This document shows positions 4,672-61,730 of a stretch of DNA of 64,000 nt, in pieces; within the stretch, counting starts at the first letter, position 1; the number at the start of each line of letters is the position of its first letter. The stretch lies in assembly GCF_022846255.1 (NCBI RefSeq), contig NZ_AP025682.1. One strand, 5' to 3'. The notes under the pieces were generated by a model. It made no database searches. It was given only the letters and a program-made list of their open reading frames with translations, and had not been told where the DNA came from. The DNA is from Escherichia coli. GTDB lineage: Bacteria; Pseudomonadota; Gammaproteobacteria; Enterobacterales; Enterobacteriaceae. A program made the position numbers and the translations under genes.

Positions 4672-4981
4672 GGTTCTCTCCCTAAAAATCTGTCTGGCAG
4701 GGTAGCGATTTGTGCGTATTGTCACGATTGAGATTTTTTAAGGTGAGAGGAAATTGATAACTTTTAGTTATGTGAAATCGCTATTTTCTGTAGCGTAGAT
4801 GTATTCTTCTGACTTCTTGTCTGAGAAAATGCATAAGAAAAAATAGGTTAAAATTGAGGGTGGAAAAGAAAGGTGCAATGTTTAGCCATTGTGTTCACCG
4901 CACCTGGACTTTGGCTTACGCATCGGGTATCTCAATCAACAAAAAGAGTTTTTAGTTTCTGCTATTTCTTCTCTGTAATTT

Positions 4982-5239
4982 TTACACTGTTTTCCAACTG
5001 CTTGATGCTGACCTGCGGGGTCGGCAACTTAATACAACCATTTTGGTGGTTTCAACGAAATGGTCAGATGCAGCTTGATTGCTGGCTTCGCACGCTTGAG
5101 TCGCGCGGGCCAGTACCTTTTGAAAATTGCGCGAGTCCCGATAATCCAGTAACGGTGCCAATTCTCTCGCTGACCAAAATTCTTGCCCTTCAGTGCCATA
5201 ATGCCGTATTTCTTCAAAAGGTTGATGATGTTCGTTCAT
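4982..5239 (-). pseudogene. dinD: Truncated DNA-damage-inducible protein DinD (about 85 aa left of a ~274-aa protein)
   Basis: ORF MNEHHQPFEEIRHYGTEGQEFWSARELAPLLDYRDSRNFQKVLARA... matches the DinD N-terminus, then diverges and stops; no long in-frame continuation on the minus strand between 4726 and 4982; LexA box just upstream; position between yicC and yicG matches dinD. Confidence 0.55.
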
Positions 5240-5282
5240 TGCCCACTCCATGTGATATCGATTGCAAGGAAAGTAAGTTTAC

Positions 5283-5302
5283 AACTGTGTTTATATACAG
5301 TT
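5283..5302. promoter_or_regulatory. LexA (SOS) box AACTGTGTTTATATACAGTT upstream of the dinD remnant
   Basis: Perfect CTGT-N8-ACAG palindrome with AT-rich centre, about 45 bp upstream of the dinD start. Confidence 0.65.
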
Positions 5303-5460
5303 GTGAGCATCTCACGTTCTCACTGCGCTGGGCAAAAAAACATCGCAAAATCTGGAGCAGGCACGCAAAACAGAATTGAATGTTGCGGGGAGGAAAAATG
5401 CCGCTCTGTTTGAGTGGGCGGCATTTGTGAAGGCTGAAAAGGAAGAATTGGCGTTACGAG

Positions 5461-6324
5461 TTATTCAATGTTCTGGATCTGCTCGCGCATCTGCTCAATC
5501 AACACTTTCAGCTCGATGGCAGAATTCGTCACTTCGGCATTGATAGATTTCGACGCAAGAGTGTTCGACTCGCGGTTGAACTCCTGCATCATAAAGTCCA
5601 GACGACGGCCAACCGCTTCTTTTTTCTTCAGAATGTTGTAGGTCTCTTTGACATGCGCTTCGAGGCGGTCCAGTTCTTCGGCAACGTCAATTCGTTGTGC
5701 CAGCAGAACCAACTCCTGCTCCAGACGGTTGTTTTCCAGTTGCACCTGAGCATCTTCCAGCTTCGCGACCAGACGCTCACGCTGCCATTGCAGGATTTCC
5801 GGCATATGGGCGCGGACTTTGACCACTTCGGCGCTGACGCCTTCCAGACGCTGCTCGATCAATGCTTTCAGCGCCTGACCTTCGGTTTCGCGCGCGACGA
5901 TAAAGTCGTCCAGCGTACCATCCAACGCCGCGAGAATTTCAGCGGCAATCGCGTCGAGATCCTGCTCCTGGGCTGCCATTACGCCCGGCCAGCGCAGAAT
6001 ATCAACCGGGTTGATTTCCCCTTCGTCACTCTGCATTTTTACCCAGTTCGCGGCAGTTACCAGCTGTTTAGCCAGTTTTTCGTTGAGGATCAGCTCACCT
6101 TGCGCGCTAACATCTGGCTCATAGCGCAGGGTACATTCCACTTTACCGCGCGTCAGGCGAGAACGAATACGCTCACGAACGACAGGTTCAAGGCTACGGA
6201 ACTGCTCCGGCAGACGAAAGTAAGTTTCCAGATAACGCTGGTTTACCGAGCGCATTTCCCAGGTTGCGCTCCCCCATTCACCCTTGATTTCACGCCGGGC
6301 GTAGGCGGTCATACTGCGGATCAT
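5461..6324 (-). CDS. yicC: UPF0701 protein YicC
   Basis: 287-aa ORF MIRSMTAYARREIKGEWGSATWEMRSVNQRYLE... recognised as YicC. Confidence 0.9.
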   Translation of the reverse strand: MIRSMTAYARREIKGEWGSATWEMRSVNQRYLETYFRLPEQFRSLEPVVRERIRSRLTRGKVECTLRYEPDVSAQGELILNEKLAKQLVTAANWVKMQSDEGEINPVDILRWPGVMAAQEQDLDAIAAEILAALDGTLDDFIVARETEGQALKALIEQRLEGVSAEVVKVRAHMPEILQWQRERLVAKLEDAQVQLENNRLEQELVLLAQRIDVAEELDRLEAHVKETYNILKKKEAVGRRLDFMMQEFNRESNTLASKSINAEVTNSAIELKVLIEQMREQIQNIE

Positions 6325-6450
6325 AGACGTTCCTGTTTATAAAAGGAGAGGTGGAAGGATTATAGCCATCGATGCCTTGTCAGGATAGGAATAACCGCCG
6401 GAAGTCCGTATAATGCGCAGCCACATTTGTTTCAAGCCGGAGATTTCAAT

Positions 6451-7167
6451 ATGCGTCCAGCAGGCCGTAGCAATAATCAGGTGCGTCCCGTTACCCTGAC
6501 TCGTAACTATACAAAACATGCAGAAGGCTCGGTGCTGGTCGAATTTGGCGATACCAAAGTATTGTGTACCGCCTCTATTGAAGAAGGCGTGCCGCGCTTC
6601 CTGAAAGGTCAGGGCCAGGGCTGGATCACCGCAGAGTACGGCATGCTGCCACGTTCTACCCACACCCGTAACGCGCGTGAAGCGGCGAAAGGTAAGCAGG
6701 GTGGACGCACCATGGAAATCCAGCGTCTGATCGCCCGTGCTCTTCGCGCGGCAGTAGATTTGAAAGCGCTGGGTGAGTTCACCATTACGCTGGACTGCGA
6801 CGTGCTTCAGGCTGATGGTGGCACGCGTACCGCGTCGATTACGGGTGCCTGCGTGGCGCTGGCAGATGCGCTACAGAAGCTGGTGGAAAACGGTAAGCTG
6901 AAAACCAATCCGATGAAAGGGATGGTAGCCGCGGTTTCTGTCGGGATTGTGAACGGCGAAGCGGTTTGCGATCTGGAATACGTTGAAGACTCTGCCGCAG
7001 AGACCGACATGAACGTAGTGATGACCGAAGACGGGCGCATCATTGAAGTGCAGGGGACGGCAGAAGGCGAGCCGTTCACCCATGAAGAGTTACTCACCTT
7101 GTTGGCGCTGGCCCGAGGGGGAATCGAATCCATTGTAGCGACGCAGAAGGCGGCGCTGGCAAACTGA
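6451..7167 (+). CDS. rph: Ribonuclease PH, full-length 238 aa (no rph-1 frameshift)
   Basis: [45 protein letters not shown]... reads through to ...[11 protein letters not shown]. Confidence 0.95.
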
Positions 7168-7174
7168 TTTTTAA

Positions 7175-7201
7175 GGCGACTGATGAGTCGCCTTTTTTTT
7201 G
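7175..7201 (+). terminator. pyrE attenuator: GC hairpin GGCGACTGATGAGTCGCC followed by T8
   Basis: Inverted repeat plus T-run starting 8 nt after the rph stop (7165-7167) and about 30 nt before the pyrE start. Confidence 0.7.
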
Positions 7202-7232
7202 TCTGTAGAAAAGTAAGATGAGGAGCGAAGGC

Positions 7233-7874
7233 ATGAAACCATATCAGCGCCAGTTTATTGAATTTGCGCTTAGCAAGCAGGTGTTAAAGTTTGGCGAGTT
7301 TACGCTGAAGTCCGGGCGCAAAAGCCCCTATTTCTTCAACGCCGGGCTGTTTAATACCGGGCGCGATCTGGCACTGTTAGGCCGTTTTTACGCTGAAGCA
7401 TTGGTGGATTCCGGCATTGAGTTCGATCTGCTGTTTGGCCCTGCTTACAAAGGGATCCCGATTGCCACCACAACTGCCGTGGCGCTGGCGGAGCATCATG
7501 ACCTGGACCTGCCGTACTGCTTTAACCGCAAAGAAGCAAAAGACCATGGTGAAGGTGGCAATCTGGTCGGTAGCGCGTTACAAGGACGCGTAATGCTGGT
7601 GGATGATGTGATCACCGCCGGAACGGCGATCCGCGAGTCGATGGAAATTATTCAGGCCAATGGCGCGACGCTGGCTGGCGTATTGATTTCGCTTGATCGT
7701 CAGGAACGCGGGCGCGGCGAGATTTCGGCGATTCAGGAAGTTGAGCGTGATTACAACTGCAAGGTGATCTCTATCATCACCCTGAAAGACCTGATTGCTT
7801 ACCTGGAAGAGAAGCCAGAAATGGCGGAACATCTGGCGGCGGTTAAGGCCTATCGCGAAGAGTTTGGCGTTTAA
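7233..7874 (+). CDS. pyrE: Orotate phosphoribosyltransferase
   Basis: [41 protein letters not shown]..., 213 aa from ATG 7233. Confidence 0.95.
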
Positions 7875-7910
7875 AGAAACTCGCCGGATGAAAAGTCATC
7901 CGGCGTCATA

Positions 7911-8507
7911 TTACTGCAACTGTGCGGCAATTAGCGGCCAGCGGGCGTCAAAATCATCCGTCGGGCGGTATTTAAACTCGCTGCGGACAAAGCGTGACAG
8001 CATACCTTCACAGAAGGCCAGCAACTGGCTTGCCAGCAGGGTTTCATCGGTGGTGTAACCTTCACCCTCACGCATTCTCTTTTCACGCAATACCTGACGC
8101 AACTGCGCTTCAATACGCTCGAACAGCTGGTTGATGCGCCCTTGCAGACGATCCTGTTCGAACATTAGCGCATGACCAGTGAGGATGCGAGTCAGGCCAG
8201 GATTACGCTCACCAAAACCGAGAAGCAGCAACACAATCAGACGCAGGCGCGCTGTGGTGTCCTTCTCATCTTTCAGAATCAGATTGATGCGAGTAATCAG
8301 GCTATCTTCGATAAACTCAATCAGGCTATCGAACATGCGGGTCTTACTGGGGAAGTGGCGATACAGTGCCGCTTCGGAAACGCCGACAGAGGCGGCCAGT
8401 TTTGCCGTCGTGATACGTTGGCTTCCATCGCTGGATTCCAGCATCAGCGCCAGAGACTGAAGTATTTCCTCGCGACGGTTCCTTTTCGCAGTTTGTTTTT
8501 CTGCCAT
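7911..8507 (-). CDS. slmA: Nucleoid occlusion factor SlmA (TetR family)
   Basis: ORF contains [52 protein letters not shown]...; 198 aa. Confidence 0.9.
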
Positions 8508-17053: not shown

Positions 17054-17843
17054 ACTTAAAGAGCCGTTTGCCACGTTATGGCGCGGTAAAGATCCTTTTG
17101 AGGAAGTTAAAACCTTGCAGGGTGAGGTATTTCGTGAACTGGAAACTCGCCGCACTCTGCGCTTTGAAATGGCGGGCAAAAGCTATTTTCTCAAATGGCA
17201 TCGCGGCACGACCCTGAAAGAGATAATCAAAAATTTACTCTCATTGCGGATGCCAGTATTAGGCGCAGACCGCGAATGGAATGCGATTCATCGACTGCGG
17301 GATGTCGGCGTTGATACTATGTATGGGGTGGCATTCGGCGAAAAAGGCATTAATCCGCTGACCAGAACCTCGTTTATTATTACCGAAGATCTGACACCAA
17401 CCATCAGTCTGGAAGATTACTGTGCTGACTGGGTGACCAACCCACCAGATGTTTGCGTAAAGCGTATGCTTATTAAGCGTGTCGCGACGATGGTGCGCGA
17501 TATGCATGCTGCGGGCATTAACCACCGTGACTGTTATATCTGTCATTTCCTGCTGCACTTGCCTTTTTCCAGTAAGGAAGAGGAGTTAAAAATTTCAGTA
17601 ATTGACCTGCACCGGGCGCAGCTTCGCACGCGCGTTCCACGTCGTTGGCGCGATAAAGATCTTATTGGGCTTTATTTTTCTTCGATGAATATCGGCCTGA
17701 CTCAGCGGGATATCTGGCGGTTTATGAAAGTGTATTTTGTCGCCCCGCTTAAAGACATTCTCAAGCAGGAACAAGGGCTGCTGTCGCAAGCAGAAGCAAA
17801 AGCCACAAAAATCAGGGAAAGAACGATTCGAAAATCGTTGTAA
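17046..17843 (+). CDS. waaP: LPS core heptose(I) kinase WaaP
   Basis: [57 protein letters not shown]...; overlaps the waaG stop. Confidence 0.95.
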
Positions 17844-17858
17844 TTTCCGGAGAGAAAT

Positions 17859-18875
17859 ATGAGTGCCCACTATTTTAATCCACAAGAGATGATCAATAAG
17901 ACAATCATCTTCGATGAAAGGCCAGCGGCGTCAGTGGCATCATCATTCCATGTTGCTTATGGCATTGATAAAAACTTTCTTTTTGGTTGTGGTGTTTCAA
18001 TCACGTCAGTTTTGTTACATAACAACGACGTGAGTTTTGTTTTCCACGTTTTTATTGATGATATCCCTGAAGCTGATATCCAGCGTTTAGCCCAATTGGC
18101 GAAAAGCTATCGTACCTGTATCCAGATCCATCTGGTAAATTGTGAACGGCTTAAGGCATTACCGACGACCAAAAATTGGTCTATTGCCATGTATTTCCGT
18201 TTTGTAATTGCAGATTACTTTATTGATCAACAAGATAAGATCCTTTACCTGGATGCTGATATCGCCTGTCAGGGAAACTTAAAGCCGCTGATAACAATGG
18301 ATCTTGCCAATAACGTTGCTGCTGTTGTTACTGAACGCGATGCTAACTGGTGGTCGTTACGGGGTCAAAGTCTGCAGTGTAATGAACTTGAAAAGGGTTA
18401 CTTTAATTCAGGTGTCCTGTTAATTAATACACTAGCGTGGGCGCAGGAGTCCGTTTCTGCTAAAGCGATGTCGATGCTTGCTGATAAAGCCATCGTTTCC
18501 CGTTTAACCTATATGGATCAAGATATCCTTAATCTTATCCTGTTAGGGAAAGTTAAATTCATTGATGCTAAATACAATACGCAATTTAGTTTAAATTATG
18601 AATTAAAAAAATCATTTGTTTGTCCAATTAATGATGAAACCGTATTAATTCATTATGTCGGCCCGACAAAACCCTGGCATTACTGGGCCGGTTATCCAAG
18701 TGCGCAACCTTTTATCAAAGCCAAAGAAGCATCGCCCTGGAAAAATGAACCGTTAATGCGGCCAGTTAACTCAAACTATGCTCGTTATTGCGCCAAGCAT
18801 AATTTTAAACAAAATAAACCAATTAACGGGATAATGAATTATATTTATTATTTTTATTTAAAGATAATAAAATGA
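17859..18875 (+). CDS. waaO: Outer-core family-8 glycosyltransferase, by position WaaO (alpha-1,3-glucosyltransferase)
   Basis: 338-aa ORF with GT8 hallmarks (YGIDKNFLFG..., YLDADI..., NSGVLLIN); first gene after waaP as in R1/R4 core loci; assignment rests on family plus gene order. Confidence 0.7.
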   Translation: MSAHYFNPQEMINKTIIFDERPAASVASSFHVAYGIDKNFLFGCGVSITSVLLHNNDVSFVFHVFIDDIPEADIQRLAQLAKSYRTCIQIHLVNCERLKALPTTKNWSIAMYFRFVIADYFIDQQDKILYLDADIACQGNLKPLITMDLANNVAAVVTERDANWWSLRGQSLQCNELEKGYFNSGVLLINTLAWAQESVSAKAMSMLADKAIVSRLTYMDQDILNLILLGKVKFIDAKYNTQFSLNYELKKSFVCPINDETVLIHYVGPTKPWHYWAGYPSAQPFIKAKEASPWKNEPLMRPVNSNYARYCAKHNFKQNKPINGIMNYIYYFYLKIIK

Positions 18876-18891
18876 AATTGAGAAAAGTTAA

Positions 18892-19887
18892 ATGAATGAA
18901 TTTATAAAAGAACGGTTTTCGTATTTAGCAGATAATAAAAAAGAAAACGCCCCAGAGCTAAATGTTTCCTACGGTATCGATAAGAATTTTTTGTATGGTG
19001 CTGGCGTTTCAATTTCTTCCGTTTTGATTAATAATTCAGATATTAATTTTGTCTTTCATGTTTTCACTGATTATGTGGATGATGATTATTTAAAGTCATT
19101 TAATGAAACAGCAAAACAATTTAATACCTCAATTATTGTATATTTAATTGACCCCAAATACTTTGCTGATCTGCCGACGTCACAGTTTTGGTCGTACGCG
19201 ACATACTTCAGGGTATTGTCTTTTGAATATCTGAGTGAAAGTATTTCCACACTGCTGTATCTGGATGCCGATGTTGTTTGTAAAGGAAGCCTGAAACCTC
19301 TCACAGAAATTATATTTAAAGATGAGTTTGCTGCGGTCATTCCTGACAATGATAGTACTCAGGCGGCATGTGCAAAACGCCTCAACATTCCCGAAATGAA
19401 TGGACGTTATTTCAATGCAGGCGTTATCTATGTCAATCTTAAAAAATGGCATGAAGCAAATTTGACACCGTATTTACTCACGCTTTTACGAGGGGAAACT
19501 AAATATGGCTCTCTTAAATATTTAGATCAGGATGCGTTGAATATCGCATTTAATATGAATAATATCTACCTCGCGAAGGATTTTGATACTATTTATACCC
19601 TGAAAAACGAACTTCATGATCGTAGTCATCGAAAGTATCAGCAAACCATTACCGATAAAACAGTATTGATTCACTATACAGGGATAACTAAACCATGGCA
19701 TAGCTGGGCTGGATATCCGTCTGCATCATACTTTAATATCGCGCGTGAACAATCTCCCTGGAAGAAATATCCTCTTAAAGAGGCGCGGACTGTTGCAGAA
19801 ATGCAGAAACAATATAAGCATCTGTTTGCCCATGGTGAGTATATAAAAGGCATAACTTCATTAATTAAGTACAAGCTTAAGAAATAA
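18892..19887 (+). CDS. waaT: Outer-core family-8 glycosyltransferase, by position WaaT (alpha-1,2-galactosyltransferase)
   Basis: 331-aa GT8-like ORF (YGIDKNFLYGAGVSISS..., YLDADVVCKG, NAGVIYVN); second GT8 gene in the operon. Confidence 0.6.
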   Translation: MNEFIKERFSYLADNKKENAPELNVSYGIDKNFLYGAGVSISSVLINNSDINFVFHVFTDYVDDDYLKSFNETAKQFNTSIIVYLIDPKYFADLPTSQFWSYATYFRVLSFEYLSESISTLLYLDADVVCKGSLKPLTEIIFKDEFAAVIPDNDSTQAACAKRLNIPEMNGRYFNAGVIYVNLKKWHEANLTPYLLTLLRGETKYGSLKYLDQDALNIAFNMNNIYLAKDFDTIYTLKNELHDRSHRKYQQTITDKTVLIHYTGITKPWHSWAGYPSASYFNIAREQSPWKKYPLKEARTVAEMQKQYKHLFAHGEYIKGITSLIKYKLKK

Positions 19888-19896
19888 ATTACTCTT

Positions 19897-20589
19897 ATGA
19901 TTACAAGTATACGTTATCGCGGCTTCTCATTTTATTACAAAGATAATGATAATAAATATAAAAAAATCTTTGATGAAATACTGGCCTATAATTTTAAAAC
20001 AGTAAAAGTATTACGTAATATTGATGATACCAAAGTATCGTTGATTGATACGAAATATGGTCGCTATGTTTTTAAAGTCTTTGCTCCGAAAACGAAAAGG
20101 AATGAACGTTTTTTAAAATCTTTTGTAAAAGGTGACTACTATCAGAATTTGATCGTTGAAACCGATCGTGTCAGAAGTGCAGGTCTTACTTTTCCTAATG
20201 ATTTTTATTTTCTGGCTGAGCGTAAAATTTTCAACTATGCCAGTGTTTTTATCATGCTTATCGAGTATGTCGAGGGCGTAGAGCTCAATGATATGCCGAT
20301 TATTCCAGAAAATGTTAAAGCAGAAATTAAGGCTTCAATGGAAAAATTGCATGCCTTAAATATGCTATCGGGCGACCCACACCGGGGTAACTTTATCGTT
20401 AGTAAAGATGGTGTCAGGATAATTGACCTATCCGGTAAAAGCTGTACGGCAGAGCGTAAAGCTCGTGATCGTCTGGCCATGGAACGTCACCTGGGTATTG
20501 CCAACGAAATAAAAGATTATGGCTACTATTCAGTAATCTACAGAACCAAACTACGCAAATTTATTAAAAAATTAAAAGGCAAAGCGTAA
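19897..20589 (+). CDS. waaY: LPS core heptose(II) kinase WaaY
   Basis: 230-aa ORF MITSIRYRGFSFYYKDNDNKYKKIFDEILAY... with kinase-like motifs (HGDPHRGNF); right size and position for WaaY. Confidence 0.8.
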   Translation: MITSIRYRGFSFYYKDNDNKYKKIFDEILAYNFKTVKVLRNIDDTKVSLIDTKYGRYVFKVFAPKTKRNERFLKSFVKGDYYQNLIVETDRVRSAGLTFPNDFYFLAERKIFNYASVFIMLIEYVEGVELNDMPIIPENVKAEIKASMEKLHALNMLSGDPHRGNFIVSKDGVRIIDLSGKSCTAERKARDRLAMERHLGIANEIKDYGYYSVIYRTKLRKFIKKLKGKA

Positions 20590-20614
20590 ACCACACAGTC
20601 AAAACGGAACCAAC

Positions 20615-21643
20615 ATGGATTTATTAGCTGAGAGTATTACTGAAGTCGCTGTCTCTGGGGAAATTGCTAACACCGATCGTGTGTTAAATATCGCTTACGG
20701 TATTGACCGCAACTTTTTATTTGGTGCGGCAGTATCTATGCAATCAGTTGTTATGCATAACCCGGACCTTGCGGTTAAGTTTCATCTCTTTACTGACTAC
20801 ATTGATGAAGATTATCTACAACGTGTTAATGCTTTTACCAGCAAAAATGCTAACGTTGAAGTAAGAATTTATAAAGTATCCAGTGCCTTTATTGATATCT
20901 TCCCCAGCCTGAAACAGTGGTCTTATGCAACATTCTTCCGTTTAGTTGCGTTCCAGTATCTGAGTGAAACTATTGAAAATCTGTTATATATCGATGCTGA
21001 TGTCATCTGTAAAGGCTCATTAGCTGGATTGCTTGATATTAATTTTGATGGCGATAAGTTCGCAGCTGTTATTAAAGATGTGCCTTTTATGCAGGAAAAA
21101 CCAGCGAAGCGTCTGGCTATAGAGGGGCTTCCAGGGAATTATTTCAACGCCGGTGTAGTATATCTGCAGCTTGAAGCATGGGCGAAAAATGATTTTATGA
21201 ATAAAGCCATTGCTATGCTGGCAAGTGACCCGCAGCACACGAAATATAAATGCCTTGACCAGGATATTTTAAATATTCTGTTCTTTGGTCATTGTATTTT
21301 TATTAGCGGCGATTATGATTGCTTTTATGGCATTGACTATGAGTTAAAAAATAAAAGCGATGAAGATTATAAAAAGACCATTACCGATGATACTAAGCTG
21401 ATTCATTATGTTGGCGTAACGAAGCCCTGGAACGACTGGACGAATTATCCCTGCCAGAAGTATTTTAATGAGGCTTATCAGGCTTCTTGCTGGAATGATG
21501 TGGCGTTTATTCCAGCAACGAATGAAAAGCAGTATCAAGTGAAATCCAGACATTTGAAAAGAAATGGTAAAATTGCATCTTCATTTTACTATTTCATGCT
21601 CTATTATAGTAAGAAAATAGCGCGTAAGCATTTTTCCAAATAA
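20615..21643 (+). CDS. waaW: Outer-core family-8 glycosyltransferase, by position WaaW (alpha-1,2-galactosyltransferase)
   Basis: 342-aa GT8-like ORF (YGIDRNFLFGAAVSMQS..., YIDADVICKG, NAGVVYLQ); third GT8 gene, following waaY. Confidence 0.6.
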   Translation: MDLLAESITEVAVSGEIANTDRVLNIAYGIDRNFLFGAAVSMQSVVMHNPDLAVKFHLFTDYIDEDYLQRVNAFTSKNANVEVRIYKVSSAFIDIFPSLKQWSYATFFRLVAFQYLSETIENLLYIDADVICKGSLAGLLDINFDGDKFAAVIKDVPFMQEKPAKRLAIEGLPGNYFNAGVVYLQLEAWAKNDFMNKAIAMLASDPQHTKYKCLDQDILNILFFGHCIFISGDYDCFYGIDYELKNKSDEDYKKTITDDTKLIHYVGVTKPWNDWTNYPCQKYFNEAYQASCWNDVAFIPATNEKQYQVKSRHLKRNGKIASSFYYFMLYYSKKIARKHFSK

Positions 21644-21674
21644 TTATTAAGATTAATCATCCAGAGATTTTTTA

Positions 21675-22448
21675 ATGAACTTGCCCATTTATATTGTCTC
21701 ACTTAAAAGAGATATTGAGCGAAGAAATAAAATAAATGATGTTTTTCATCGATTAAATATTAATTTTGATTTTTTTGATGCCATAGATGCTAAAGACCCT
21801 CAAAATAAAGAAATTATTGATAAAATGAGATTAAGTGGTGTCGGCGCAGAAATGACTGATGGAGAAATTGCTTGTACATTAAGTCATCAGCTTATATATC
21901 AGGATATGATAGATAAAAATATAGAATGGGCAGTCATTCTCGAGGATGATGTTATCGTCAATGAGAGATTTAAAAAATTTCTGCAATATTTTAATCTTTC
22001 TGAAAAAGACAAGTTAAAACATAATAATTTGTATTTGCTTGGAGGACAGAAAGGATTACATGATTATCCGGTATTGGGGCAAAGCCTTTTTAGTAAAGTT
22101 AAGGTAAGTACTTGTACTTTTCGGCGTGTTAATTTCAATAAAAATAAAATTCGGCGTACATGTTCATATTTGATGAATAAAGATATGGCACAAAAGTTGC
22201 TCAAATTGACAATGGATTGTGGCACCTATCGAGCTGATAGCTGGAAGTTAATGCATCAACATAATATTATAAAAGATTTTTATTTAGACGAAATAATATT
22301 ACATCCTATTTTAAATGAGTTTAATAGTCACCTTGAAAGTGAAAGGCTTTTAATATCGGAAAAAAAACAACCCAGGACAAGGCTTCAGAAAAAAATGAAG
22401 TTTATACGTTCCTGGATAAAGGTGGCTTTTTTTTCTCTTTTGAAATGA
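21675..22448 (+). CDS. Family-25-like beta-glycosyltransferase (LgtB/Lic2A-like): WaaV (R1) or WaaX (R4)
   Basis: 257-aa ORF MNLPIYIVSLKRDIERRNKINDVF...FDFFDAIDAKD...ACTLSHQLIYQDMIDKN...AVILEDDVIV resembles LgtB-type transferases; I cannot tell WaaV from WaaX without a reference alignment. Confidence 0.7.
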   Translation: MNLPIYIVSLKRDIERRNKINDVFHRLNINFDFFDAIDAKDPQNKEIIDKMRLSGVGAEMTDGEIACTLSHQLIYQDMIDKNIEWAVILEDDVIVNERFKKFLQYFNLSEKDKLKHNNLYLLGGQKGLHDYPVLGQSLFSKVKVSTCTFRRVNFNKNKIRRTCSYLMNKDMAQKLLKLTMDCGTYRADSWKLMHQHNIIKDFYLDEIILHPILNEFNSHLESERLLISEKKQPRTRLQKKMKFIRSWIKVAFFSLLK

Positions 22449-22482
22449 GATTGTTAATTTAAATTTATTGTGAGATATTAAC

Positions 22483-23736
22483 GTGGAAGTAAAAATTGAG
22501 CAATTTCGAAATAACAGCTGTAATTTTATTTTTTTATTATATTTAATCGGTTTATTGTTTGTGCCAATTGATCTAAATATTACCACTAAAATAATTAATG
22601 CTACAGGTGCATTTTCTCTTTTTTTATTAATTGTAAATAACAAGCATAATTATAATAAAAATATCATTATATTAATTCTTGGCTTACTTCTTTTGGGTGC
22701 AATGAACCTGATATGGTATGAGTTTTATAAAACAGAAGATGTAGTATATAGAAATGCTTATCGAGGCTATCTTGAGTCTGGAAAACTATTAGTATTTAGC
22801 TCGTTGACATTTTTATTACTAAGTAAAAATAAATTCAGGCAAAATGAAAAGCTACATTTTATTTCAGCTATCTTAGTTCAAATAATCATGCTATGTAGAG
22901 CATATTATCAAGGGATATATTTGCATGCAGACCGCATTCCCCTCTCCGCCATGAATGGGAATATTGGTCAGATGGGGGCAGCGACTATTGCGGCTTATGT
23001 GATTACATTCACTACTTTATATTCTTCAATTGTATTCATCAAAATGCAATCGAAATATAAATGGTTTCTATTTTATGCTAACTTTGCTTTAAGCTTTGCA
23101 GCAGTAATGATGACAGGAACACGTGCGGCAATTTTCACATTCCCACTTATGATTATGGTCATATTATTTCTTCAGCATCGTGATCAAAAAGTGTTTTTAT
23201 TTAAAGGATTGAGTGGTGTTTTTATATTGCTACTTGCTTGTGGTTTGATATTTAATAAGGAAATTGAGAGGCGAATTAATTCATTAAAAGCTGATGTTAT
23301 TTCATATGCTACAAAAAATAACAGTCAATCCTCGGTCGGAGCACGTTTTGCAATGGTTAATGCAGGAATTAAAGGAAGTCCTGATGGTTTTAATTGGCAA
23401 TCTCTTGAGCAGCGTGCTGAAAAGATAAAAGCATTAAGTGCAGAAAATAATATTTATAGTGGAGCTTTATTATTCCTTGATGTACATATGCATAATGAAA
23501 TTGTTGAATCTCTTTCCACGAAAGGAAAAATTGGTCTTCTTGTTCTTATTATGTTCTATGTTGCAATGATCTATTACTGTATCCGGGAGAAAAAATATAT
23601 ACTCTTGGTTTTCCCTGCTTCTATTATGTTATTTGGCATTAGTGATGTCATTACACATGCTAAACCAATACCGGCATCGTGGATTGTGTGCCTCTTCCTG
23701 TCTATATCGTTTTTGAGTAAAAAAGAACCACAATAA
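22483..23736 (+). CDS. waaL: O-antigen ligase WaaL (polytopic membrane protein)
   Basis: 417-aa, highly hydrophobic, AT-rich ORF at the end of the central waa operon; the track start is a GTG at 22483 and the true start is uncertain; called from position and topology rather than sequence identity. Confidence 0.7.
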   Translation: MEVKIEQFRNNSCNFIFLLYLIGLLFVPIDLNITTKIINATGAFSLFLLIVNNKHNYNKNIIILILGLLLLGAMNLIWYEFYKTEDVVYRNAYRGYLESGKLLVFSSLTFLLLSKNKFRQNEKLHFISAILVQIIMLCRAYYQGIYLHADRIPLSAMNGNIGQMGAATIAAYVITFTTLYSSIVFIKMQSKYKWFLFYANFALSFAAVMMTGTRAAIFTFPLMIMVILFLQHRDQKVFLFKGLSGVFILLLACGLIFNKEIERRINSLKADVISYATKNNSQSSVGARFAMVNAGIKGSPDGFNWQSLEQRAEKIKALSAENNIYSGALLFLDVHMHNEIVESLSTKGKIGLLVLIMFYVAMIYYCIREKKYILLVFPASIMLFGISDVITHAKPIPASWIVCLFLSISFLSKKEPQ

Positions 23737-23751
23737 TAAAAGCGTTGACTA

Positions 23752-23778
23752 AGTAAGTGGGTATAATGCCCACTTACT
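23752..23778. terminator. Hairpin AGTAAGTGGG-N7-CCCACTTACT between convergent waaL and waaC
   Basis: Perfect 10-bp inverted repeat in the 47-bp gap between the two stops; possible bidirectional terminator, inferred. Confidence 0.4.
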
Positions 23779-23783
23779 ATTTA

Positions 23784-24743
23784 TTAAATCAATGTGATTT
23801 TTTTATAAACAGCCGCTGCTTCTAAATTATTTAAATTCATTAGCGGAGCCCTACAAACCATCTGATTCTTCCCATACCCACCAATTAATCCCGGATCGGT
23901 AGGTCCATAAACCGTGATATTGGGTCTATCCAGTGCCGCCGTTAAATGGCTTAACCCCGTATCCACCGACACTACAAATTTAGCCCCGGCCAGTACGCGG
24001 GCAACGCCTTCCAGACTCATCTTCGGCAATACTTCAACATAAGCAAATCCTTCCGCCAGTCGTTTCGCCCGTTCTTCCTCATGCGGCGCGCCCCACGGAA
24101 GTTTAATCCGTATTCCTGAATCAGCCAGTAAACCAATCAATTCTCGCCAGTGTTCTTCCGGCCAGTGTTTATCATCTCGGGTTGTTGCATGAAGAAATAC
24201 GGCATATTCGCCAGCATCTGTAGGCAGGTTCGTCAGGAAATGCTGTGCGATAGCATAATCGCCCTGGGTTTGTGGTTTGCTATAGCCCAGACTTTTGGCA
24301 AACAGTTCGCGGGTGCGTTCTACGGCGTGCTGCTGTTTTGCAATATGATGTTTACGATTGTAAAACAGGCTGGCTAACGGTTCGCGAGCGGTTTGCCAGT
24401 CCATTCCATGCTTTACGCCATGCGCCAGACGCGTCACCAGCGCCGCGCTTTTTACCAGCCCCTGGGCGTCGATAACTGCGTCATAGTTCTTTGCTTGTAG
24501 CGCTTCACGAAACGCTTTGCGTTCAGCTTTTATGGGAGCCGAGAACCAGGCTTTACGCCAGCGACGTATTGCCACAGGAATAACTCGCTCAACGGCAGCG
24601 TGCCAGGAAGGAATCTGTGCGAACCCTTCTTCCACCACCCAGTCAAACTTAATCCCTGGGATTGCCTGCTGGGCATCAGTGAGTGCGGGCAGCGTGTGGA
24701 GAACATCGCCCATCGACGATGTTTTAACGATCAGAACCCGCAT
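23784..24743 (-). CDS. waaC: LPS heptosyltransferase I WaaC
   Basis: 319-aa ORF MRVLIVKTSSMGDVLHTLPALTDAQQAIPGIKFDWVVEEGFAQIPSWH... Confidence 0.9.
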   Translation of the reverse strand: MRVLIVKTSSMGDVLHTLPALTDAQQAIPGIKFDWVVEEGFAQIPSWHAAVERVIPVAIRRWRKAWFSAPIKAERKAFREALQAKNYDAVIDAQGLVKSAALVTRLAHGVKHGMDWQTAREPLASLFYNRKHHIAKQQHAVERTRELFAKSLGYSKPQTQGDYAIAQHFLTNLPTDAGEYAVFLHATTRDDKHWPEEHWRELIGLLADSGIRIKLPWGAPHEEERAKRLAEGFAYVEVLPKMSLEGVARVLAGAKFVVSVDTGLSHLTAALDRPNITVYGPTDPGLIGGYGKNQMVCRAPLMNLNNLEAAAVYKKITLI

Positions 24744-42273: not shown

Positions 42274-42357
42274 GCCGGATGCGGCGTGAACGCCTTATCC
42301 GGCCTACAGGGTAGTGCTGAATCACCCCGTAGGCCTGATAAGCGTAGCGCATCAGGC
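42274..42357. repeat. BIME: two inverted REP elements between the adhesin gene 3' end and the lldP promoter
   Basis: GCCGGATGCGGCGTGAACGCCTTATCCGGCCTAC followed by inverted REP GTAGGCCTGATAAGCGTAGCGCATCAGGC. Confidence 0.75.
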
Positions 42358-42389
42358 AATGTGGCGTTTACCCATTTGTTAATGGATCA

Positions 42390-45300
42390 TTACCACTGAA
42401 TACCAGCACCGAGTGCGGCGGAGTATTCACCCTGGCTATTGGTACTACCTTGTAATTTGTAGACCCAACGACCATTGGCGCTCACCATCGACACACCTAA
42501 AGCAACAGCCGATTCACCGTTGTAAGTACCGCCACCAATAGACGCCATGCTGGCACCCGGCGTGTAAGCCTGCGGCAGACCGGTCATTGCCATTGCAGAA
42601 GCGATACCACCACTCAGCTTGCTTTCAGTTTTGGACAGTTTGTTATCCATCTCAACCATGCGCTGATCGGTGTATTGCTTCGTTTCCTGCACACTTTGCT
42701 TCAACTGCGCATAGTTCACTGCGTCGTTGTTGTTCACGCCAGCAGAAACGTTGCTGATGCGAGTCGTACCGCTATTGCCGCCACCGAGAGTGATGTTGCT
42801 GTAGTCGATAGAGCCATCAGCTTTGGTGTCGTAGCGCACGCCGCCTGCTTCAGAAGACTTCAGTTGCGAAACGTTAACCGCATCGGTGGCATTAACACCG
42901 GCAGCAACGTTGGTGATACGGCGCTGGTTGGTAGAAGAACCCACAGAGATCGTATTTTCTTCGTCTGCTACGGAACCCGTGCCCAGTGCGACGCTGTTGT
43001 CAGCGGCAGCAATGGAACCAGAACCAATCGCAACACTGTCTTTACCCTGCGCGTTGGCGTCTGCGCCATCGGTGTTGGTCTTGAAGTACTTAGTGCTACC
43101 GGTGGTTACGATATCGCCAATGCCGTTTTCGATATTGGTCACGCGAGTATCCAGATTAGTGACCTGAGTGTTCAGGTTAGTAATGCTCTGGGTATTCTGG
43201 GAAACCTGCGCGTCCGTTACTTTCAACTGACCCACGTTAACCGCATCGGTATCCGCCGAACCTGCTGCGACGTTGGTGATCTGACGTTGACCGTCTTCAC
43301 TGCCGACAGAGAACTCACCCACAGAGTTCTGCGGTGCGTCCATGTTGTAGGCAGTGTAGTTGGTCTGCGCGCCACGGGTAGTCTGAGAACCATTACCCAT
43401 TGCAATGCTGTCGGCATGATTTGCGCGTGCGTTAGAACCGATAGCAATACCGTTGATCGCATCAGCCAGAACTAAAGTGTTCAGGCCGATACCAATACCC
43501 GCATTACCATTAACGATGGTTTTCGCGCCCATTGCCAGCGAGTCTTCACCGACTGCCAGTGAGTCTTCAGCCGTTGAGTTGGCGTGATAGTATTTGGTTG
43601 GTGTGGTTGCGACTGCACCAATGGCGTTCTGCAACTGGCGAACAGTAACAGCGTCATGGGCTTCAGAACCATCCGCGACGTTGATGATTTGACGATATTT
43701 ACCATCATCACCGATCGACAATGCACCAAGCAGTTCGCCGTCAGTTGTGTCATAACCAATAACCACTCCATCTTCTGTTACGCTGGTAGAGCGTGAACCT
43801 TTCAAAATGACCCGGTTAGAGACCGAATTGCTGCCTAATGCGATGCCGGAATCGATAGTGCTACTGCTGTTCTGACCAATCGCGACACTGCTTTCCCCGG
43901 AAGCGACAGAGTTATAACCCACAGCCGTTGAGCCAACGCCCGCGGCGCTTGCGTCGACAAAGGTTAAGCCCGTGTCGTTGGTGCGAACATAGTTAATACC
44001 CGCCCCATTTTCTTCGATATAGGTACTGTTAGTATTACCGGCGAGTTGGTTGATGATCTCACTATTCTGATTGATCAACATATTCGCGGCATACAACTGA
44101 GAACCGTTAACGGCATCGGTACTGGCGGCAGAAAGTTCACCTGCGGCAACATTCGTGATTTTGCTGGTGGTGTTAGTGCCGTGCGCCGCAGAGAATGAGC
44201 CGGATACGGAATCCCACGTCATCGCATCTTCACCGAGACTGTCGATAGCATCAGTCAGATTGGTGATGTTGGTAGTGTTAGTGGCAACGTCAGTGGTCAG
44301 ATTACTGATATTGGTGGTGTTGGCTGCCACATTCTCGTTGGTAGTATTCAACTGAGAGCCATTAATCGCATCAGTACTGGTGGCACTGATCTCACCCGCA
44401 GCAACATAAGCGATTTTGCTGGCACTACCACCGTGACTGGCACTGAAACTGCCTGAAGCGTTGTCCCAGAGCAGGGCATCGCCGAGTGAGGTTCCGACCG
44501 AAGTGTTAATGGCTGCCAGGGCATCGCCTACGCTGTTGTAGTCAGTTCCATTAATACTATAGGTTGGGCCAGTAAATACACCTGTATCACTTACAGTGGC
44601 ACCGCCACCAAAATAATCCGCTACCGTACTGCTAAGACCGTAGAGTTGTCCACCGTTCACGGCATCGGTACTGGTGGCAGAAATAGCACCTGCGGTGACA
44701 TTGGTGATTTTGCTGGTGGCGTCAGTGCCGTGCGCAGCGCTGAATGCTGTGCCCTTCCACAACAGAGAATCGTCACCGAGACTGTCAACAGCGTCAGTCA
44801 GGTTAGTGATACTGGTGGTATTGCCAGCGACGTCGTTGGTCAGATTAGTGATATTGGTAGTGTTGGCAGCAACATCGTCTTTGGTGGCTTTCAACTGCGA
44901 ACCGTTAACGGCGTCAGTGCTGCCAGCTGTCAGGTCACCGGCTTTGACATTGGTGATTTTGCTGGTGGCGTCAGTGCCGTGCGCAGCGCTGAATGCTGTG
45001 CCCTTCCACAACAGAGAATCGTCACCGAGACTGTCAACAGCGTCAGTCAGGTTAGTGATACTGGTGGTATTGCCAGCGACGTCGTTGGTCAGATTAGTGA
45101 TATTGGTAGTGTTGGCAGCAACATCGTCTTTGGTGGCTTTCAACTGCGAACCGTTAACGGCGTCAGTGCTGCCAGCTGTCAGGTCACCGGCTTTGACATT
45201 GGTGATTTTGCTGGTGGCGTCAGTGCCGTGCGCAGCGCTGAATGCTGTGCCCTTCCACAACAGAGAATCGTCACCGAGACTGTCAACAGCGTCAGTCAGG

Positions 45301-47021
45301 TTAGTGATACTGGTGGTATTGCCAGCGACGTCGTTGGTCAGATTAGTGATATTGGTAGTGTTGGCAGCAACGTCGTCTTTGGTGGCTTTCAACTGCGAAC
45401 CGTTAACAGCGTCAGTGCTGCCAGCAGTCAGGCTGCCAGCACTGACGTTGGTGATTTTGCTGGTGGCTTCGGTGCCGTGTGCGGCACTGAATGCTGTGCC
45501 GTTCCACAACAGAGCATCCTGCTGCAGGTCGTACAATTGAGAGCCGTTTACTACATCGGTGCTGGTTGCAGAAACCGTACCTTTAGCAACATTAGTGATT
45601 TTGTTGGTGGCATTTGCACCGTGATTGGCGCTGAACGCCCCCGCGGTTTTATTCCATTGTAGGGTATTATTGTCGATTCCTGACAGAGCATCACCCACGT
45701 TATTATAGGTTCCGCTTCTCAACGCGTAGCTTACTGCGGTTACGGTGCCATCGCTGCCTACAGTAGCGCCTCCTCCGAGTCGCTTGGCGACTGAATCACT
45801 GATCGTATAAAGCTGTGAGCCGTTGATGGCATCGGTACTGGTGTTGCTTATGGCACCAGCAGCCATATTAACAATTTTGCGTTTTGTTGCGCTGTTGCCA
45901 ACTGAAACCGTATTGCTTGCATCTGTGGTCGATCCTGCGCCGATAGCGACAGAATTGTCGGTCGCTGCTGCAGCCCCTACACCGAGGGCGACAGAATCAT
46001 TGCCGTTTGCCCTGGACTGGCTACCGAAAGCAAGGCTGTTGCTGCCACCAGCGGCACTACCCTCTCCCAATGCGATGGCATTCTCTCCCGAGGACAAACT
46101 GTTACTTCCCAACGCGATTGAGTTCACTTTGCTTGCAATGCTACCTTGCCCCAGCGCAATCGCATTTTGTTCGCTGGCTTCACTGGTGTTACCTAATGCA
46201 ATACTGGATTCGCCAGATGCCTGACTTGCATTACCCAGGGCCATCGAATTCACTCCCAGGGCTTGCGTTTTGTTCCCAATCGCGATGGCGTTATCGTTCG
46301 AACTGATACTGTCAGCACCTATTGCCAGTGAGCCAGTGCTATTAGCTGTAGATTGTCTGCCGAATGCGAGGCTATCAGCACCGGCAGCATTGCTACTTGC
46401 TCCCAGCGCCATTGCATAATCTTTTGACGCATTGGCATTATCACCGAGGGCGATGCTCATAATTTCGTAAGCTTTAGCCGAATTTCCTAACGCAATAGTT
46501 TTTTCACCATCGGCAAGGGAGGAGTCCCCAATAGCAAGAGATGTATAACCATTCGTCTTTGCGTAACGACCAAAAGCCATCGAACGATCGCCATTTGCTA
46601 CTGACGATGCACCCAGCGCGACACTTCTGTCACCCATTGATTTTGCACTAACCCCGAACGCCATGGATGCTCCACCAGTTGCAAGGGTTTTTGACCCGAT
46701 GGCAGAACTGTACTCACCTTCGGCTATCGCGTCATATCCTAAAGCTGTACTCGCGCCACTAGTGTTCATAAAGGTATTTGCTTTTGCCCCTTTACCGATA
46801 GCAACCCAGCCGTCACCTGCTGAGCCATCGCCATAATCAGTTGGCTGCCCGTCGTAGTTATTAGCTAACGCTCCAAACGACGACAACAACCCACCCGCAA
46901 CCAACGCAGAAATTAACAGCTTACTGCGCCCGCTTTTTTTACCACGGCTCTTCGCCGTTTCGCTGGCAACGCTGTAACTGCCCGTCGCCGGGTTCCAGAT
47001 AACTTTAAATATTTTATTCAT
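42390..47021 (-). CDS. upaG: Trimeric autotransporter adhesin, UpaG/EhaG/SadA family (1543 aa)
   Basis: N-terminal extended signal peptide [21 protein letters not shown]...; long low-complexity stalk with tandem repeats; C-terminal YadA-like anchor ending ...[13 protein letters not shown]; located between yibL and lldP, where UpaG/EhaG sit. Confidence 0.85.
44640..45620. repeat. Tandem 249-bp (83-codon) direct repeats inside the adhesin gene, about 3 near-identical copies plus diverged flanking copies
   Basis: Segment ttggtgattttgctggtggcgtcagtgccgtgcgcagcgctgaatgctgtgccc... recurs near 44701, 44950 and 45199; the protein shows the unit [25 protein letters not shown]...[11 protein letters not shown] three times. 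Confidence 0.85.
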
Positions 47022-47064
47022 TATTGATGCTCTCTATTCCTTGATATAAGCGCAGAGGCTGCAT

Positions 47065-54954: not shown

Positions 54955-55024
54955 GACTTGTATCACCTGTGTTTTGCGCGAGCCTGAGCCATACTGATAT
55001 TTTTCCTCGCACAAAGGACTCGGC

Positions 55025-60350: not shown

Positions 60351-60429
60351 CTATCTCAAAACTTGCTTTTTTTGAGATAGTTTCTCTTTCCTGCTATACA
60401 CTATCTCAATATTGCGCTTTTTTGAGATA
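60351..60429. promoter_or_regulatory. Two related palindromes (CTATCTCAAAA-N7-TTTTGAGATAG and TATCTCAA-N12-TTGAGATA) 50 bp apart, immediately upstream of the Fic gene
   Basis: Palindromes at 60351-60379 (11-bp perfect arms) and 60402-60429 (8-bp perfect arms); the second ends 5 nt before the Fic ATG; operator role is inferred. Confidence 0.4.
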
Positions 60430-60434
60430 AGCAC

Positions 60435-61730
60435 ATGGCTATCAAATCACCTCCCGGACTTATTCCTTTATCACACTTATCGGGTGAGGAACTCCTGGCC
60501 CACCTGCGCTTTAACCGGGTTACCGATGAAAAAGGACGTTATCTGCCTTTTGATGAGTTGCAGTACCGCATCAAAAAAGGAGAAAACGTCGATGTGGCGT
60601 GGACGCTTACCCGTCTGGCGCGCAACGCGGCGATCCAACGAATTAATTATTGCAATGAAGCGGGTGAACAGGCCGGATTCAACATTACCCCGGTGATTGC
60701 AGAAGCGTGCGAGCTTGTCGACAAACGTGCTACCGCGCTGGCGCTGAAAGATCAGACTGAACGGTTACGCGGGGCCGGAGCCGAGTTAAGCCAGTTACGC
60801 CTGGAAGAGCCGATCACCAGCTCCCAGCTGGAAGGTGCGAATACTACAACGCTGGTGGCGAGAAAAATGCTGGAAACAGGGCGGTCGCCACGCACTGAAG
60901 ACGAGCATATGATTGCGGGAAATGCCCGGCTGATGGCGGAAATTCCGCACTTACTCGCAGAACCGCTGACACCTGCGCTTATTCGCCAGTTACATGCCAT
61001 TGGTATGGGTGGAATCAATGACGCGAAATATCGTCCGGGAGAATTTCGTGAAACAGATGATGTTGTGATCGCCGACTATGATGGCAATATAGTGCATCAA
61101 CCGCCCGCTGCGGCATTGTTACCGGAACGGCTGGAAAAAGTTTGCCAGTGGTTAAACAGCCATGAAGGGTATATTCATCCGTTGGTCCGTGCCTGCATTC
61201 TGCATTTTATGCTGGCCCATGAACATCCGTTTCGGGATGGCAACGGGCGCACCAGTCGGGCGCTGTTTTACTGGTATATGCTGAAATCGGGCTACGATGT
61301 CTTTAAATATATTTCCATCAGCCGTTTGCTTCATGCTGCACCGGTCAAATATGCCGCCAGCTACCAGTACACTGAATCAGATGGTATGGATCTGACTTAT
61401 TTCCTTGAATATCAGGCGGGTGTCATTAAACGTGCTCTGCAAAACTGGCAGCAGCATATCGATGAAATTACACAACGAAGCGCAAAACTCGATAGTGTGC
61501 TGTTTAGCTCTGGTGTGCTTAAACGCCTGAATCCGCGCCAGGTAACGCTCCTGAATGTGATGCTCGCCAATCCGGGGAAAGAGTACACAGTTGCTGAAAT
61601 TAGCGCGAGCCTGGGCGTCTCTGATAATACGGCTCGAGCTGATTTACGGACAATTGTTAAAGAAGGATTCGCGCAAGAGAAAAGAATTAATAACCAGCAA
61701 GCAGTGTACGTCGCACACTACCCGCTGTAG
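60435..61730 (+). CDS. Fic-domain protein (Fic core [14 protein letters not shown], upstream inhibitory-type motif SSQLEG, C-terminal winged-HTH-like region)
   Basis: 431-aa ORF; canonical HxFx(D/E)GNGRxxR Fic motif; a [S/T]xxxE[G/N] segment (TSSQLEGAN) N-terminal to it; C-terminal [36 protein letters not shown] looks like a wHTH. Confidence 0.8.

What the first reader, a model, noticed from the sequence alone, without database searches (positions are those of the whole stretch)
6451..7201. Intact rph reading frame upstream of the pyrE attenuator
RNase PH is full length (238 aa) and its stop codon lies 8 nt before the attenuator hairpin GGCGACTGATGAGTCGCC-T8. This is the wild-type arrangement that gives normal translation-coupled pyrE attenuation, unlike the rph-1 frameshift of K-12 MG1655 and W3110. 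The source is therefore not one of those laboratory strains.
Basis: partly seen in the sequence, partly recalled or inferred. Interest (0 to 1): 0.2.

Follow-up and report, generated by a model that had tools for sequence, protein, structure and literature searches.

The report
Ordinary wild-type rph-pyrE attenuator region
This is the normal, unbroken form of the E. coli RNase PH gene sitting just in front of the terminator hairpin that controls the pyrimidine gene pyrE; about 97% of sequenced E. coli look the same, so it is ordinary and only shows that the DNA is not from the MG1655/W3110 laboratory lineage.

Summary
The rph gene runs from 6451 to 7167 on the + strand and encodes a full-length 238-aa RNase PH. 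It scores 380.8 bits against TIGR01966 and matches the profile end to end. Its TGA stop (7165-7167) is followed by 7 bases, then the hairpin GGCGAC-TGATGA-GTCGCC (7175-7192; extended stem 7173-7194), then T8 (7193-7200). pyrE starts at 7233.

Direct alignment shows that MG1655 and W3110 lack one G of the run GGGGG at 7117-7121. Removing one G in silico reproduces the 228-aa MG1655 product, with a TAG at 7136-7138, 29 nt further upstream.

The intact allele is the norm. It is found in 5249 of 5426 complete E. coli genomes. The rph-1 allele is found in 169, and every one of the 60 listed is named as, or has the genome size of, a K-12 laboratory derivative.

Some K-12 laboratory strains are rph+ (JM83, JM109, XL1-Blue, TUM24567), so the intact frame alone excludes only rph-1 carriers. 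What excludes K-12 altogether is the window's haplotype: 27 mismatches in the 1550-nt operon and 92-98% identity elsewhere.

The mechanism, UTP-sensitive and translation-coupled attenuation, is textbook and was not tested here. The feature is already known and of low interest.

The parts
6451..7167 (+). rph coding sequence: RNase PH, 238 aa plus a TGA stop
   Evidence: ORF list and translation. TIGR01966 scores 380.8 bits and covers profile positions 1-235 of 236. PDB 1r6l, E 3.7e-104. Identical to WP_001247093.1.
7117..7121 (+). GGGGG run, the site of the rph-1 single-G deletion in MG1655 and W3110. It is intact here.
   Evidence: Alignments A1 and A2. The 34-mer with G5 occurs in 5249 of 5426 genomes and the 33-mer with G4 in 169.
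7136..7138 (+). Out-of-frame TAG that becomes the premature rph stop in rph-1 strains. It is not used here.
   Evidence: Deleting one G in silico gives 228 aa ending ARGESNPL* with the TAG at these coordinates. This matches the MG1655 product.
7165..7167 (+). Wild-type rph stop codon TGA, 7 bases before the core stem and 5 before the extended stem
   Evidence: Sequence read.
7168..7174 (+). U-rich spacer TTTTTAA between the stop codon and the core stem. Its last two A residues pair with the first two T of the T-run.
   Evidence: Sequence read and fold.
7173..7194 (+). pyrE attenuator hairpin: a 9-bp stem AAGGCGACT/AGTCGCCTT with a 4-nt loop (core GGCGAC...GTCGCC at 7175-7192)
   Evidence: Terminator scan. 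Fold at -14.7 kcal/mol, z -5.7. Identical to MG1655. The 83-nt stretch from the stop to the pyrE start is an exact match in 4556 of 5426 genomes.
7193..7200 (+). T8 run of the intrinsic terminator/attenuator
   Evidence: Sequence read and terminator scan.
7220..7225 (+). pyrE Shine-Dalgarno sequence GAGGAG, 7 nt before the ATG
   Evidence: Sequence read. The assignment rests on consensus only.
7233..7874 (+). pyrE coding sequence: orotate phosphoribosyltransferase, 213 aa
   Evidence: TIGR00336 scores 240.6 bits against a cut-off of 106.8. The product is identical to that of MG1655.

Best explanation
This is the wild-type rph-pyrE operon of a non-K-12 Escherichia coli. rph and pyrE are transcribed together, and 65 nt separate them. 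That spacer holds an intrinsic terminator: a G+C-rich hairpin followed by U8.

The established K-12 model (literature, not tested here) works as follows. When UTP is plentiful, RNA polymerase runs ahead of the ribosome translating the end of rph. The hairpin then forms and most transcripts stop before pyrE. When UTP is scarce, polymerase lingers at U-rich stretches and the lead ribosome catches up.

The rph stop codon lies only 5-7 nt before the stem. My inference, from a ribosome covering about 12-15 nt 3' of the A site, is that a ribosome at the stop covers the first bases of the 5' arm. That would prevent hairpin formation and allow read-through into pyrE.

In rph-1 strains, loss of one G at the position equivalent to 7117-7121 moves the stop to 7136-7138. 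That is 34-36 nt before the stem, too far for the ribosome to mask it. Termination then stays high and pyrE expression stays low. The window has the intact G5, so both RNase PH and normal pyrE control are expected.
For: Shown here:
- The reading frame is full length and is RNase PH.
- The window has one more G than MG1655 and W3110.
- Removing one G in silico reproduces the MG1655 product and places the stop 29 nt upstream.
- The hairpin plus U8 is stable and non-random.
- Only 32 nt lie between the T-run and the pyrE ATG, and no promoter-like site was found there. pyrE therefore depends on read-through.
- The sequence from the stop to the pyrE start is base-for-base identical to K-12, where the mechanism was worked out. 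It is an exact match in 4556 of 5426 complete genomes.
- G5 occurs in 5249 genomes and G4 in 169. All 60 listed G4 genomes are named as K-12 derivatives or have K-12-sized genomes.
- In nine other Enterobacterales rph-pyrE loci the rph stop lies 6-12 nt before the same stem, although the spacer and loop sequences differ. The loci are E. albertii, two Citrobacter, two Enterobacter, Superficieibacter, a Klebsiella sp., Serratia oryzae and Morganella psychrotolerans.

From the literature:
- rph-1 is a 1-bp deletion that lowers PyrE, and moving the stop back towards the attenuator loop restores expression (PMC2784333, citing Jensen 1993 and Bonekamp 1984).
- pyrE is controlled by UTP-sensitive pausing and attenuation (PMC7818426).
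Against: Nothing was measured in this strain, so UTP responsiveness and ribosome masking are carried over from K-12 work. The primary papers (Jensen 1993; Bonekamp 1984, 1985; Turnbough and Switzer 2008) were not available to read. The mechanism is therefore cited through secondary accounts and my own knowledge.

The hairpin has a generic terminator shape. The pattern AAGGCGAC-N6-GTCGCCTTTTTT occurs at more than 120 places in unrelated genomes, so the sequence alone does not indicate regulation.

The cross-species set was selected by stem sequence. It cannot show covariation and is a biased sample for spacing. The wider 66-nt fold is not exceptional (z -1.65). No Rfam family covers this element.
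Confidence: 0.93

Rival explanations
1. The hairpin is only the constitutive terminator of a monocistronic rph gene, and pyrE is expressed from its own promoter. The position of the rph stop would then be irrelevant.
For: The hairpin has a generic intrinsic-terminator shape that is found widely in unrelated genomes. The scan found 3 terminator-like sites against 1.8 expected in the region, so the scan alone is not significant.
Against: Only 32 nt separate the T-run from the pyrE ATG, and 6 of them are the Shine-Dalgarno sequence. No promoter-like site was found there. The sequence is identical to K-12, where the frameshift in rph lowers pyrE expression and deletions that bring the stop back to the loop restore growth (PMC2784333). 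The stop-to-stem spacing of 6-12 nt is kept across nine other Enterobacterales loci.
Confidence: 0.03
2. The window comes from a K-12 laboratory strain that happens to be rph+ (for example the JM83, JM109 or DH lineage, or a repaired MG1655). The 'not a laboratory strain' reading would then be wrong in spirit.
For: rph+ K-12 laboratory strains exist (PMC11148124). TUM24567 has the K-12 SNP haplotype with G5.
Against: The window differs from MG1655 at 27 of 1550 positions in the operon, and its RNase PH has A138 and T216 where K-12 has V and I. It is 92-98% identical in blocks over 64 kb. The waa core region 17739-23845 does not align with K-12, there is an extra Fic gene and a YadA-like gene, and the rhsA island is absent. 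At the three SNP sites next to the G-run it carries the non-K-12 bases.
Confidence: 0.01
3. The fifth G is a homopolymer error of sequencing or assembly, and the real genotype is rph-1.
For: Single-base homopolymer errors are a common assembly artefact (general knowledge).
Against: G5 is the state in 5249 of 5426 complete genomes. G4 was seen only in genomes named as K-12 derivatives or of K-12 size, and the window's haplotype is not K-12. The resulting frame matches the RNase PH profile to its last positions and equals a RefSeq protein exactly.
Confidence: 0.01

Closest known systems
E. coli rph-pyrE operon with the intercistronic pyrE attenuator (wild-type rph+ form; Poulsen, Bonekamp and Jensen 1984; Jensen 1993)
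   Same: The gene order, the 65-nt intercistronic region, the hairpin, the T8 run and the pyrE start are base-for-base identical to K-12 from 7122 to 7240. The G5 run is intact, as in rph+ strains.
   Different: Only lineage SNPs within rph: 27 mismatches per 1550 nt against MG1655, giving A138 and T216 in place of the V and I of K-12. Nothing differs in the regulatory part.
rph-1 allele of MG1655, W3110 and their derivatives (BW25113, J53, HMS174 and others)
   Same: The same locus and an identical attenuator.
   Different: rph-1 has GGGG. Its frame shifts at codon 224 and stops at TAG after 228 aa, 29 nt upstream of the normal stop. It is annotated as 'truncated RNase PH' or as a frameshifted pseudogene. 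The window does not carry this allele.
pyrBI leader attenuator of E. coli (UTP-sensitive, translation-coupled attenuation)
   Same: The same logic applies (literature: PMC7818426): UTP-dependent pausing sets the gap between polymerase and the lead ribosome, and a close ribosome suppresses an intrinsic terminator.
   Different: In pyrBI the translated frame is a dedicated short leader peptide. Here it is the 3' end of a full-size gene, rph. Reiterative transcription contributes at pyrBI but is not described for pyrE (PMC7818426).
RNase PH of Pseudomonas aeruginosa (PDB 1r6l) and the bacterial RNase PH family TIGR01966
   Same: The alignment runs over residues 2-237 with E 3.7e-104 and includes the conserved DGGTRTA segment. 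The equivalog model is matched end to end.
   Different: It is a different species. No structure of the E. coli enzyme itself appeared in the search.

Membership tests
RNase PH (NCBIfam TIGR01966, equivalog) | Whole-protein score above the curated cut-off | tested here: met
   380.8 bits against a cut-off of 141.5, E 1.9e-114.
RNase PH (NCBIfam TIGR01966, equivalog) | Full-length match that includes the C-terminal helix lost in rph-1 | tested here: met
   Profile positions 1-235 of 236 are covered, against 1-221 for the MG1655 product. The alignment to 1r6l runs to residue 237.
RNase PH (NCBIfam TIGR01966, equivalog) | Phosphorolytic 3'-5' exoribonuclease activity | not testable with these tools
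   This needs an enzyme assay. It is inferred from exact identity to WP_001247093.1 and the family match.
rph-pyrE intercistronic attenuator (E. coli type) | rph and pyrE lie on the same strand with a short intercistronic region | tested here: met
   rph is at 6451-7167 and pyrE at 7233-7874, both on the + strand, with 65 nt between them.
rph-pyrE intercistronic attenuator (E. coli type) | A G+C-rich hairpin followed by a U-run lies between the two genes | tested here: met
   A 9-bp stem at 7173-7194 and T8 at 7193-7200. Fold -14.7 kcal/mol, z -5.7.
rph-pyrE intercistronic attenuator (E. coli type) | The upstream reading frame ends within a ribosome's reach of the hairpin | tested here: met
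   The TGA ends at 7167 and the stem starts at 7173 (extended) or 7175 (core), so 5-7 bases intervene. The spacing is 6-12 nt in nine other Enterobacterales loci.
rph-pyrE intercistronic attenuator (E. coli type) | pyrE has no promoter of its own downstream of the hairpin | tested here: inconclusive
   No sigma-70-like site was found between 7200 and 7232, and only 32 nt are available. A consensus scan cannot prove absence.
rph-pyrE intercistronic attenuator (E. coli type) | Read-through responds to the UTP pool and to translation of the rph 3' end | not testable with these tools
   Known for K-12 from the literature (PMC2784333, PMC11148124, PMC7818426). The sequence here is identical.
rph-1 allele (MG1655/W3110) | GGGG instead of GGGGG 43-47 bp before the rph stop, with a premature TAG and a 228-aa product | tested here: not met
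   The window has GGGGG at 7117-7121 and a 238-aa product.
E. coli K-12 lineage | Near-identity to MG1655 across the region, including the K-12 waa core cluster | tested here: not met
   92-98% identity in blocks, with 17739-23845 unaligned and several insertions and deletions. The operon has 27 mismatches.

The most novel reading that the evidence does not exclude
The short distance between the rph stop codon and the attenuator stem may be a selected parameter across Enterobacterales. It is 6-8 nt in eight of the nine other genomes sampled here and 12 nt in a Klebsiella sp., and it is kept as far out as Morganella. If so, natural variants could serve to calibrate how far a terminating ribosome may sit from a terminator hairpin and still suppress it. 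The principle is already implied by the 1984-1993 K-12 work, so this would be a modest extension and not a new mechanism.
Probability: 0.5. Interest if true: 0.15.

Novelty: already known. Interest (0 to 1): 0.05.

Why it matters
It matters only as a housekeeping fact. The strain should have active RNase PH and normal pyrE expression, so it should not show the partial pyrimidine starvation that MG1655 and W3110 show in minimal medium. The locus is also a quick marker that separates rph-1 K-12 derivatives (169 of 5426 complete genomes) from everything else. It opens no question and resolves none.

Tried and rejected
- Reading the primary papers failed: Jensen 1993 (PMC204738), Bonekamp 1984 (PMC557777), Bonekamp 1985 (PMC341299) and Turnbough and Switzer 2008. 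None is held, so the mechanism is cited through PMC2784333, PMC11148124 and PMC7818426.
- The Rfam search of 6000-8200 gave only sub-threshold chance matches caused by the terminator: RyhB at 24.5 bits against 55, and MicX.
Only 9 were rph-pyrE loci, and the source genome was not among the loci returned. Because the stems were fixed by the pattern, no covariation test was possible.
- Attempts to identify the source strain did not succeed. No complete E. coli genome exceeds 98.8% identity over 1-25000 or 98.4% over 40000-64000. The exact YadA-like protein and the truncated DinD product are not on record. The Fic protein is too common to be diagnostic.
- An IS element was suspected at 60357-61734, but the region turned out to be a Fic-domain gene.
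- One row of alignment A2 (SMS-3-5 partial) was taken from the wrong part of rph and should be ignored.

Full report
**What is there.**
The + strand carries an open reading frame from ATG 6451 to TGA 7165-7167 (717 nt, 238 aa). It is RNase PH. It scores 380.8 bits against the NCBIfam equivalog TIGR01966 (cut-off 141.5) and covers profile positions 1-235 of 236. It aligns over residues 2-237 with the solved P. aeruginosa RNase PH 1r6l (E 3.7e-104). It is identical to WP_001247093.1, the RNase PH annotated in E. coli 2022H047 and SMS-3-5.

Downstream of the stop come these elements:
- TTTTTAA at 7168-7174
- GGCGAC at 7175-7180
- TGATGA at 7181-7186
- GTCGCC at 7187-7192
- T8 at 7193-7200
- 32 further bases that include GAGGAG at 7220-7225
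- the pyrE ATG at 7233

pyrE (7233-7874, 213 aa) scores 240.6 bits against TIGR00336, and its product is identical to that of MG1655. The terminator scan reports the hairpin as a 9-pair stem at 7173-7194 with a 4-nt loop. The 33-nt core folds at -14.7 kcal/mol with z -5.7, and none of 200 shuffles folds as well. The one quibble is the spacing: 7 bases lie between the stop and GGCGAC (an offset of 8), and only 5 lie before the extended stem.

The window was aligned with MG1655 (NC_000913.3, where rph is annotated 'truncated RNase PH') and with W3110 (NC_007779.1, where rph is annotated as a frameshifted pseudogene). The window has GGGGG at 7117-7121, and both laboratory strains have GGGG. The MG1655 product is 228 aa and ends ...ARGESNPL. 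Deleting one G from the window in silico gives exactly that ending and places the stop, a TAG, at window 7136-7138. That is 29 nt upstream of the normal stop and 34-36 nt before the stem. From 7122 to the pyrE start, the window, MG1655 and W3110 are identical.

**How common each state is.**
I used short queries that cannot seed a match unless they span the G-run. The G5 version was found in 5249 of 5426 complete E. coli genomes and the G4 version in 169. Sixty G4 genomes, sampled evenly down the ranking, were listed. They are either named as K-12 derivatives (MG1655, BW25113, J53, HMS174, MFDpir and others) or have K-12-sized genomes of 4.52-4.94 Mb. The 83 nt from the end of rph to the start of pyrE are an exact match in 4556 genomes. 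The window therefore shows the ordinary state of the species.

**Is the source a laboratory strain?**
The intact frame rules out unmodified MG1655, W3110 and their descendants. It does not by itself rule out K-12. JM83, JM109 and XL1-Blue are rph+ (PMC11148124). The laboratory strain TUM24567 has the three K-12 SNPs next to the G-run together with G5.

The rest of the sequence settles the question:
- The window differs from MG1655 at 27 of 1550 positions in the operon, which gives A138 and T216 in RNase PH where K-12 has V and I.
- It aligns to MG1655 in blocks of 92-98% identity.
- The waa core region 17739-23845 does not align at all.
- The window has extra DNA at 42332-48306 and 60357-61734.
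- The rhsA island is absent.

It is E. coli, since the 1-kb rph region matches 5424 of 5426 genomes at 90-99.9%. However, no complete genome exceeds 98.8% over the first 25 kb or 98.4% over the last 24 kb. I could not name the strain.

**How it most likely works.**
The steps shown here are geometric:
- rph and pyrE are 65 nt apart on one strand.
- A stable hairpin plus U8 sits between them.
- There is no room for, and no prediction of, a promoter between the U-run and pyrE.
- The rph stop lies 5-7 nt before the stem.

The steps taken from the literature are these:
- pyrE expression is set by UTP-sensitive pausing and attenuation (PMC7818426).
- Passing the attenuator needs close coupling of transcription and translation (PMC11148124, citing Jensen 1993).
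- The 1-bp deletion in MG1655 lowers PyrE.
- Deletions that bring the stop codon back to the attenuator loop are repeatedly selected and raise the growth rate (PMC2784333, citing Jensen 1993 and Bonekamp et al. 1984).

My inference is that a ribosome at the TGA shields roughly 12-15 nt 3' of the A site and so covers the first bases of the 5' arm (7173-7180). A ribosome released at 7136-7138 would not reach it. With the intact frame, both active RNase PH and normal pyrE control are expected.

**Comparative support.**
It returned mostly unrelated terminators. That result is itself a reminder that the hairpin has an ordinary terminator shape. Nine of the loci were rph-pyrE operons of other Enterobacterales. 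In them the rph stop lies before the same stem at these distances, while the spacer, the loop and the downstream leader differ:

| Genome | Bases between rph stop and stem |
|---|---|
| Superficieibacter electus | 6 |
| Enterobacter cloacae | 6 |
| Morganella psychrotolerans | 6 |
| E. albertii | 7 |
| Citrobacter werkmanii | 7 |
| Citrobacter sp. FP75 | 7 |
| Enterobacter sp. BIGb0383 | 7 |
| Serratia oryzae | 8 |
| Klebsiella sp. BIGb0407 | 12 |

This fits a constraint on the distance. The sample was chosen by stem sequence, however, so it is biased and cannot show covariation.

**Rivals.**
- A plain rph terminator with an independent pyrE promoter is unlikely. There are only 32 nt of leader, no promoter-like site was found, and the K-12 genetics argue against it.
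- An rph+ K-12 origin is excluded by the haplotype.
- A homopolymer assembly error is very unlikely. G5 is the species norm, and the resulting protein equals a RefSeq protein exactly.

**Verdict.**
The feature has been known since 1984-1993 and is present in about 97% of complete E. coli genomes. No Rfam family exists for it, but that reflects curation, not novelty. Interest is low.

Noticed in passing
window 4843-5460 (junction near 5026-5029; leftover ORF 4982..5251 on the - strand): dinD carries an internal deletion of about 543 bp relative to E. coli SMS-3-5, with 4 nt of microhomology at the junction. This leaves an 89-aa remnant ORF. None of the best-matching complete genomes shares the deletion, since all align in two pieces. 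The closest genome at rph (2022H047) has lost the whole dinD segment through a different, larger deletion. The exact remnant product is not on record in the gene-position collection.
   Followed up: partly
window 60357-61734 (ORF 60435..61730, + strand): A 431-aa Fic-domain protein (motif [12 protein letters not shown], Pfam PF02661) lies between yiaY and aldB. It is absent from MG1655 but very common in other E. coli, being listed in about 30,900 blocks of the collection.
   Followed up: partly
window 42332-48306 (ORF 42390..47021, - strand): A 1543-aa YadA-like trimeric autotransporter gene lies in about 6 kb that MG1655 lacks. The exact protein is not on record, and the best complete genomes match this part of the window at only 96.7-98.4%.
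   Followed up: partly
window 17739-23845: The central part of the waa (LPS core) cluster does not align with MG1655, so the strain has a non-K-12 core type. The type was not determined.
   Followed up: no
window 54955-54988: The rhsA-yibA...yibU island of MG1655 (about 8 kb between yibF and yibH) is absent from the window.
   Followed up: no
whole window: No complete E. coli RefSeq genome (5426) is more than 98.8% identical over 1-25000 or more than 98.4% over 40000-64000, although the rph region alone reaches 99.9%. The source looks like a poorly sampled or mosaic lineage. Identity to MG1655 is about 97%.
   Followed up: partly
E. coli GN25, NZ_CP139196.1 near 90003-90047 (not in the window): In this genome the 83-nt stretch from the stop through the attenuator to the pyrE start matches in two separate places. 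This suggests an insertion or rearrangement inside the rph-pyrE intercistronic region. Eight of the 5426 genomes matched neither the G5 nor the G4 probe.
   Followed up: no
window 7882-7905: A 10-bp G+C-rich palindromic hairpin (CGCCGGATGA...TCATCCGGCG) lies between the convergent pyrE and slmA genes. It was called as a terminator for the - strand (slmA). It may also end the rph-pyrE transcript, but it has no T-run on the + strand.
   Followed up: no
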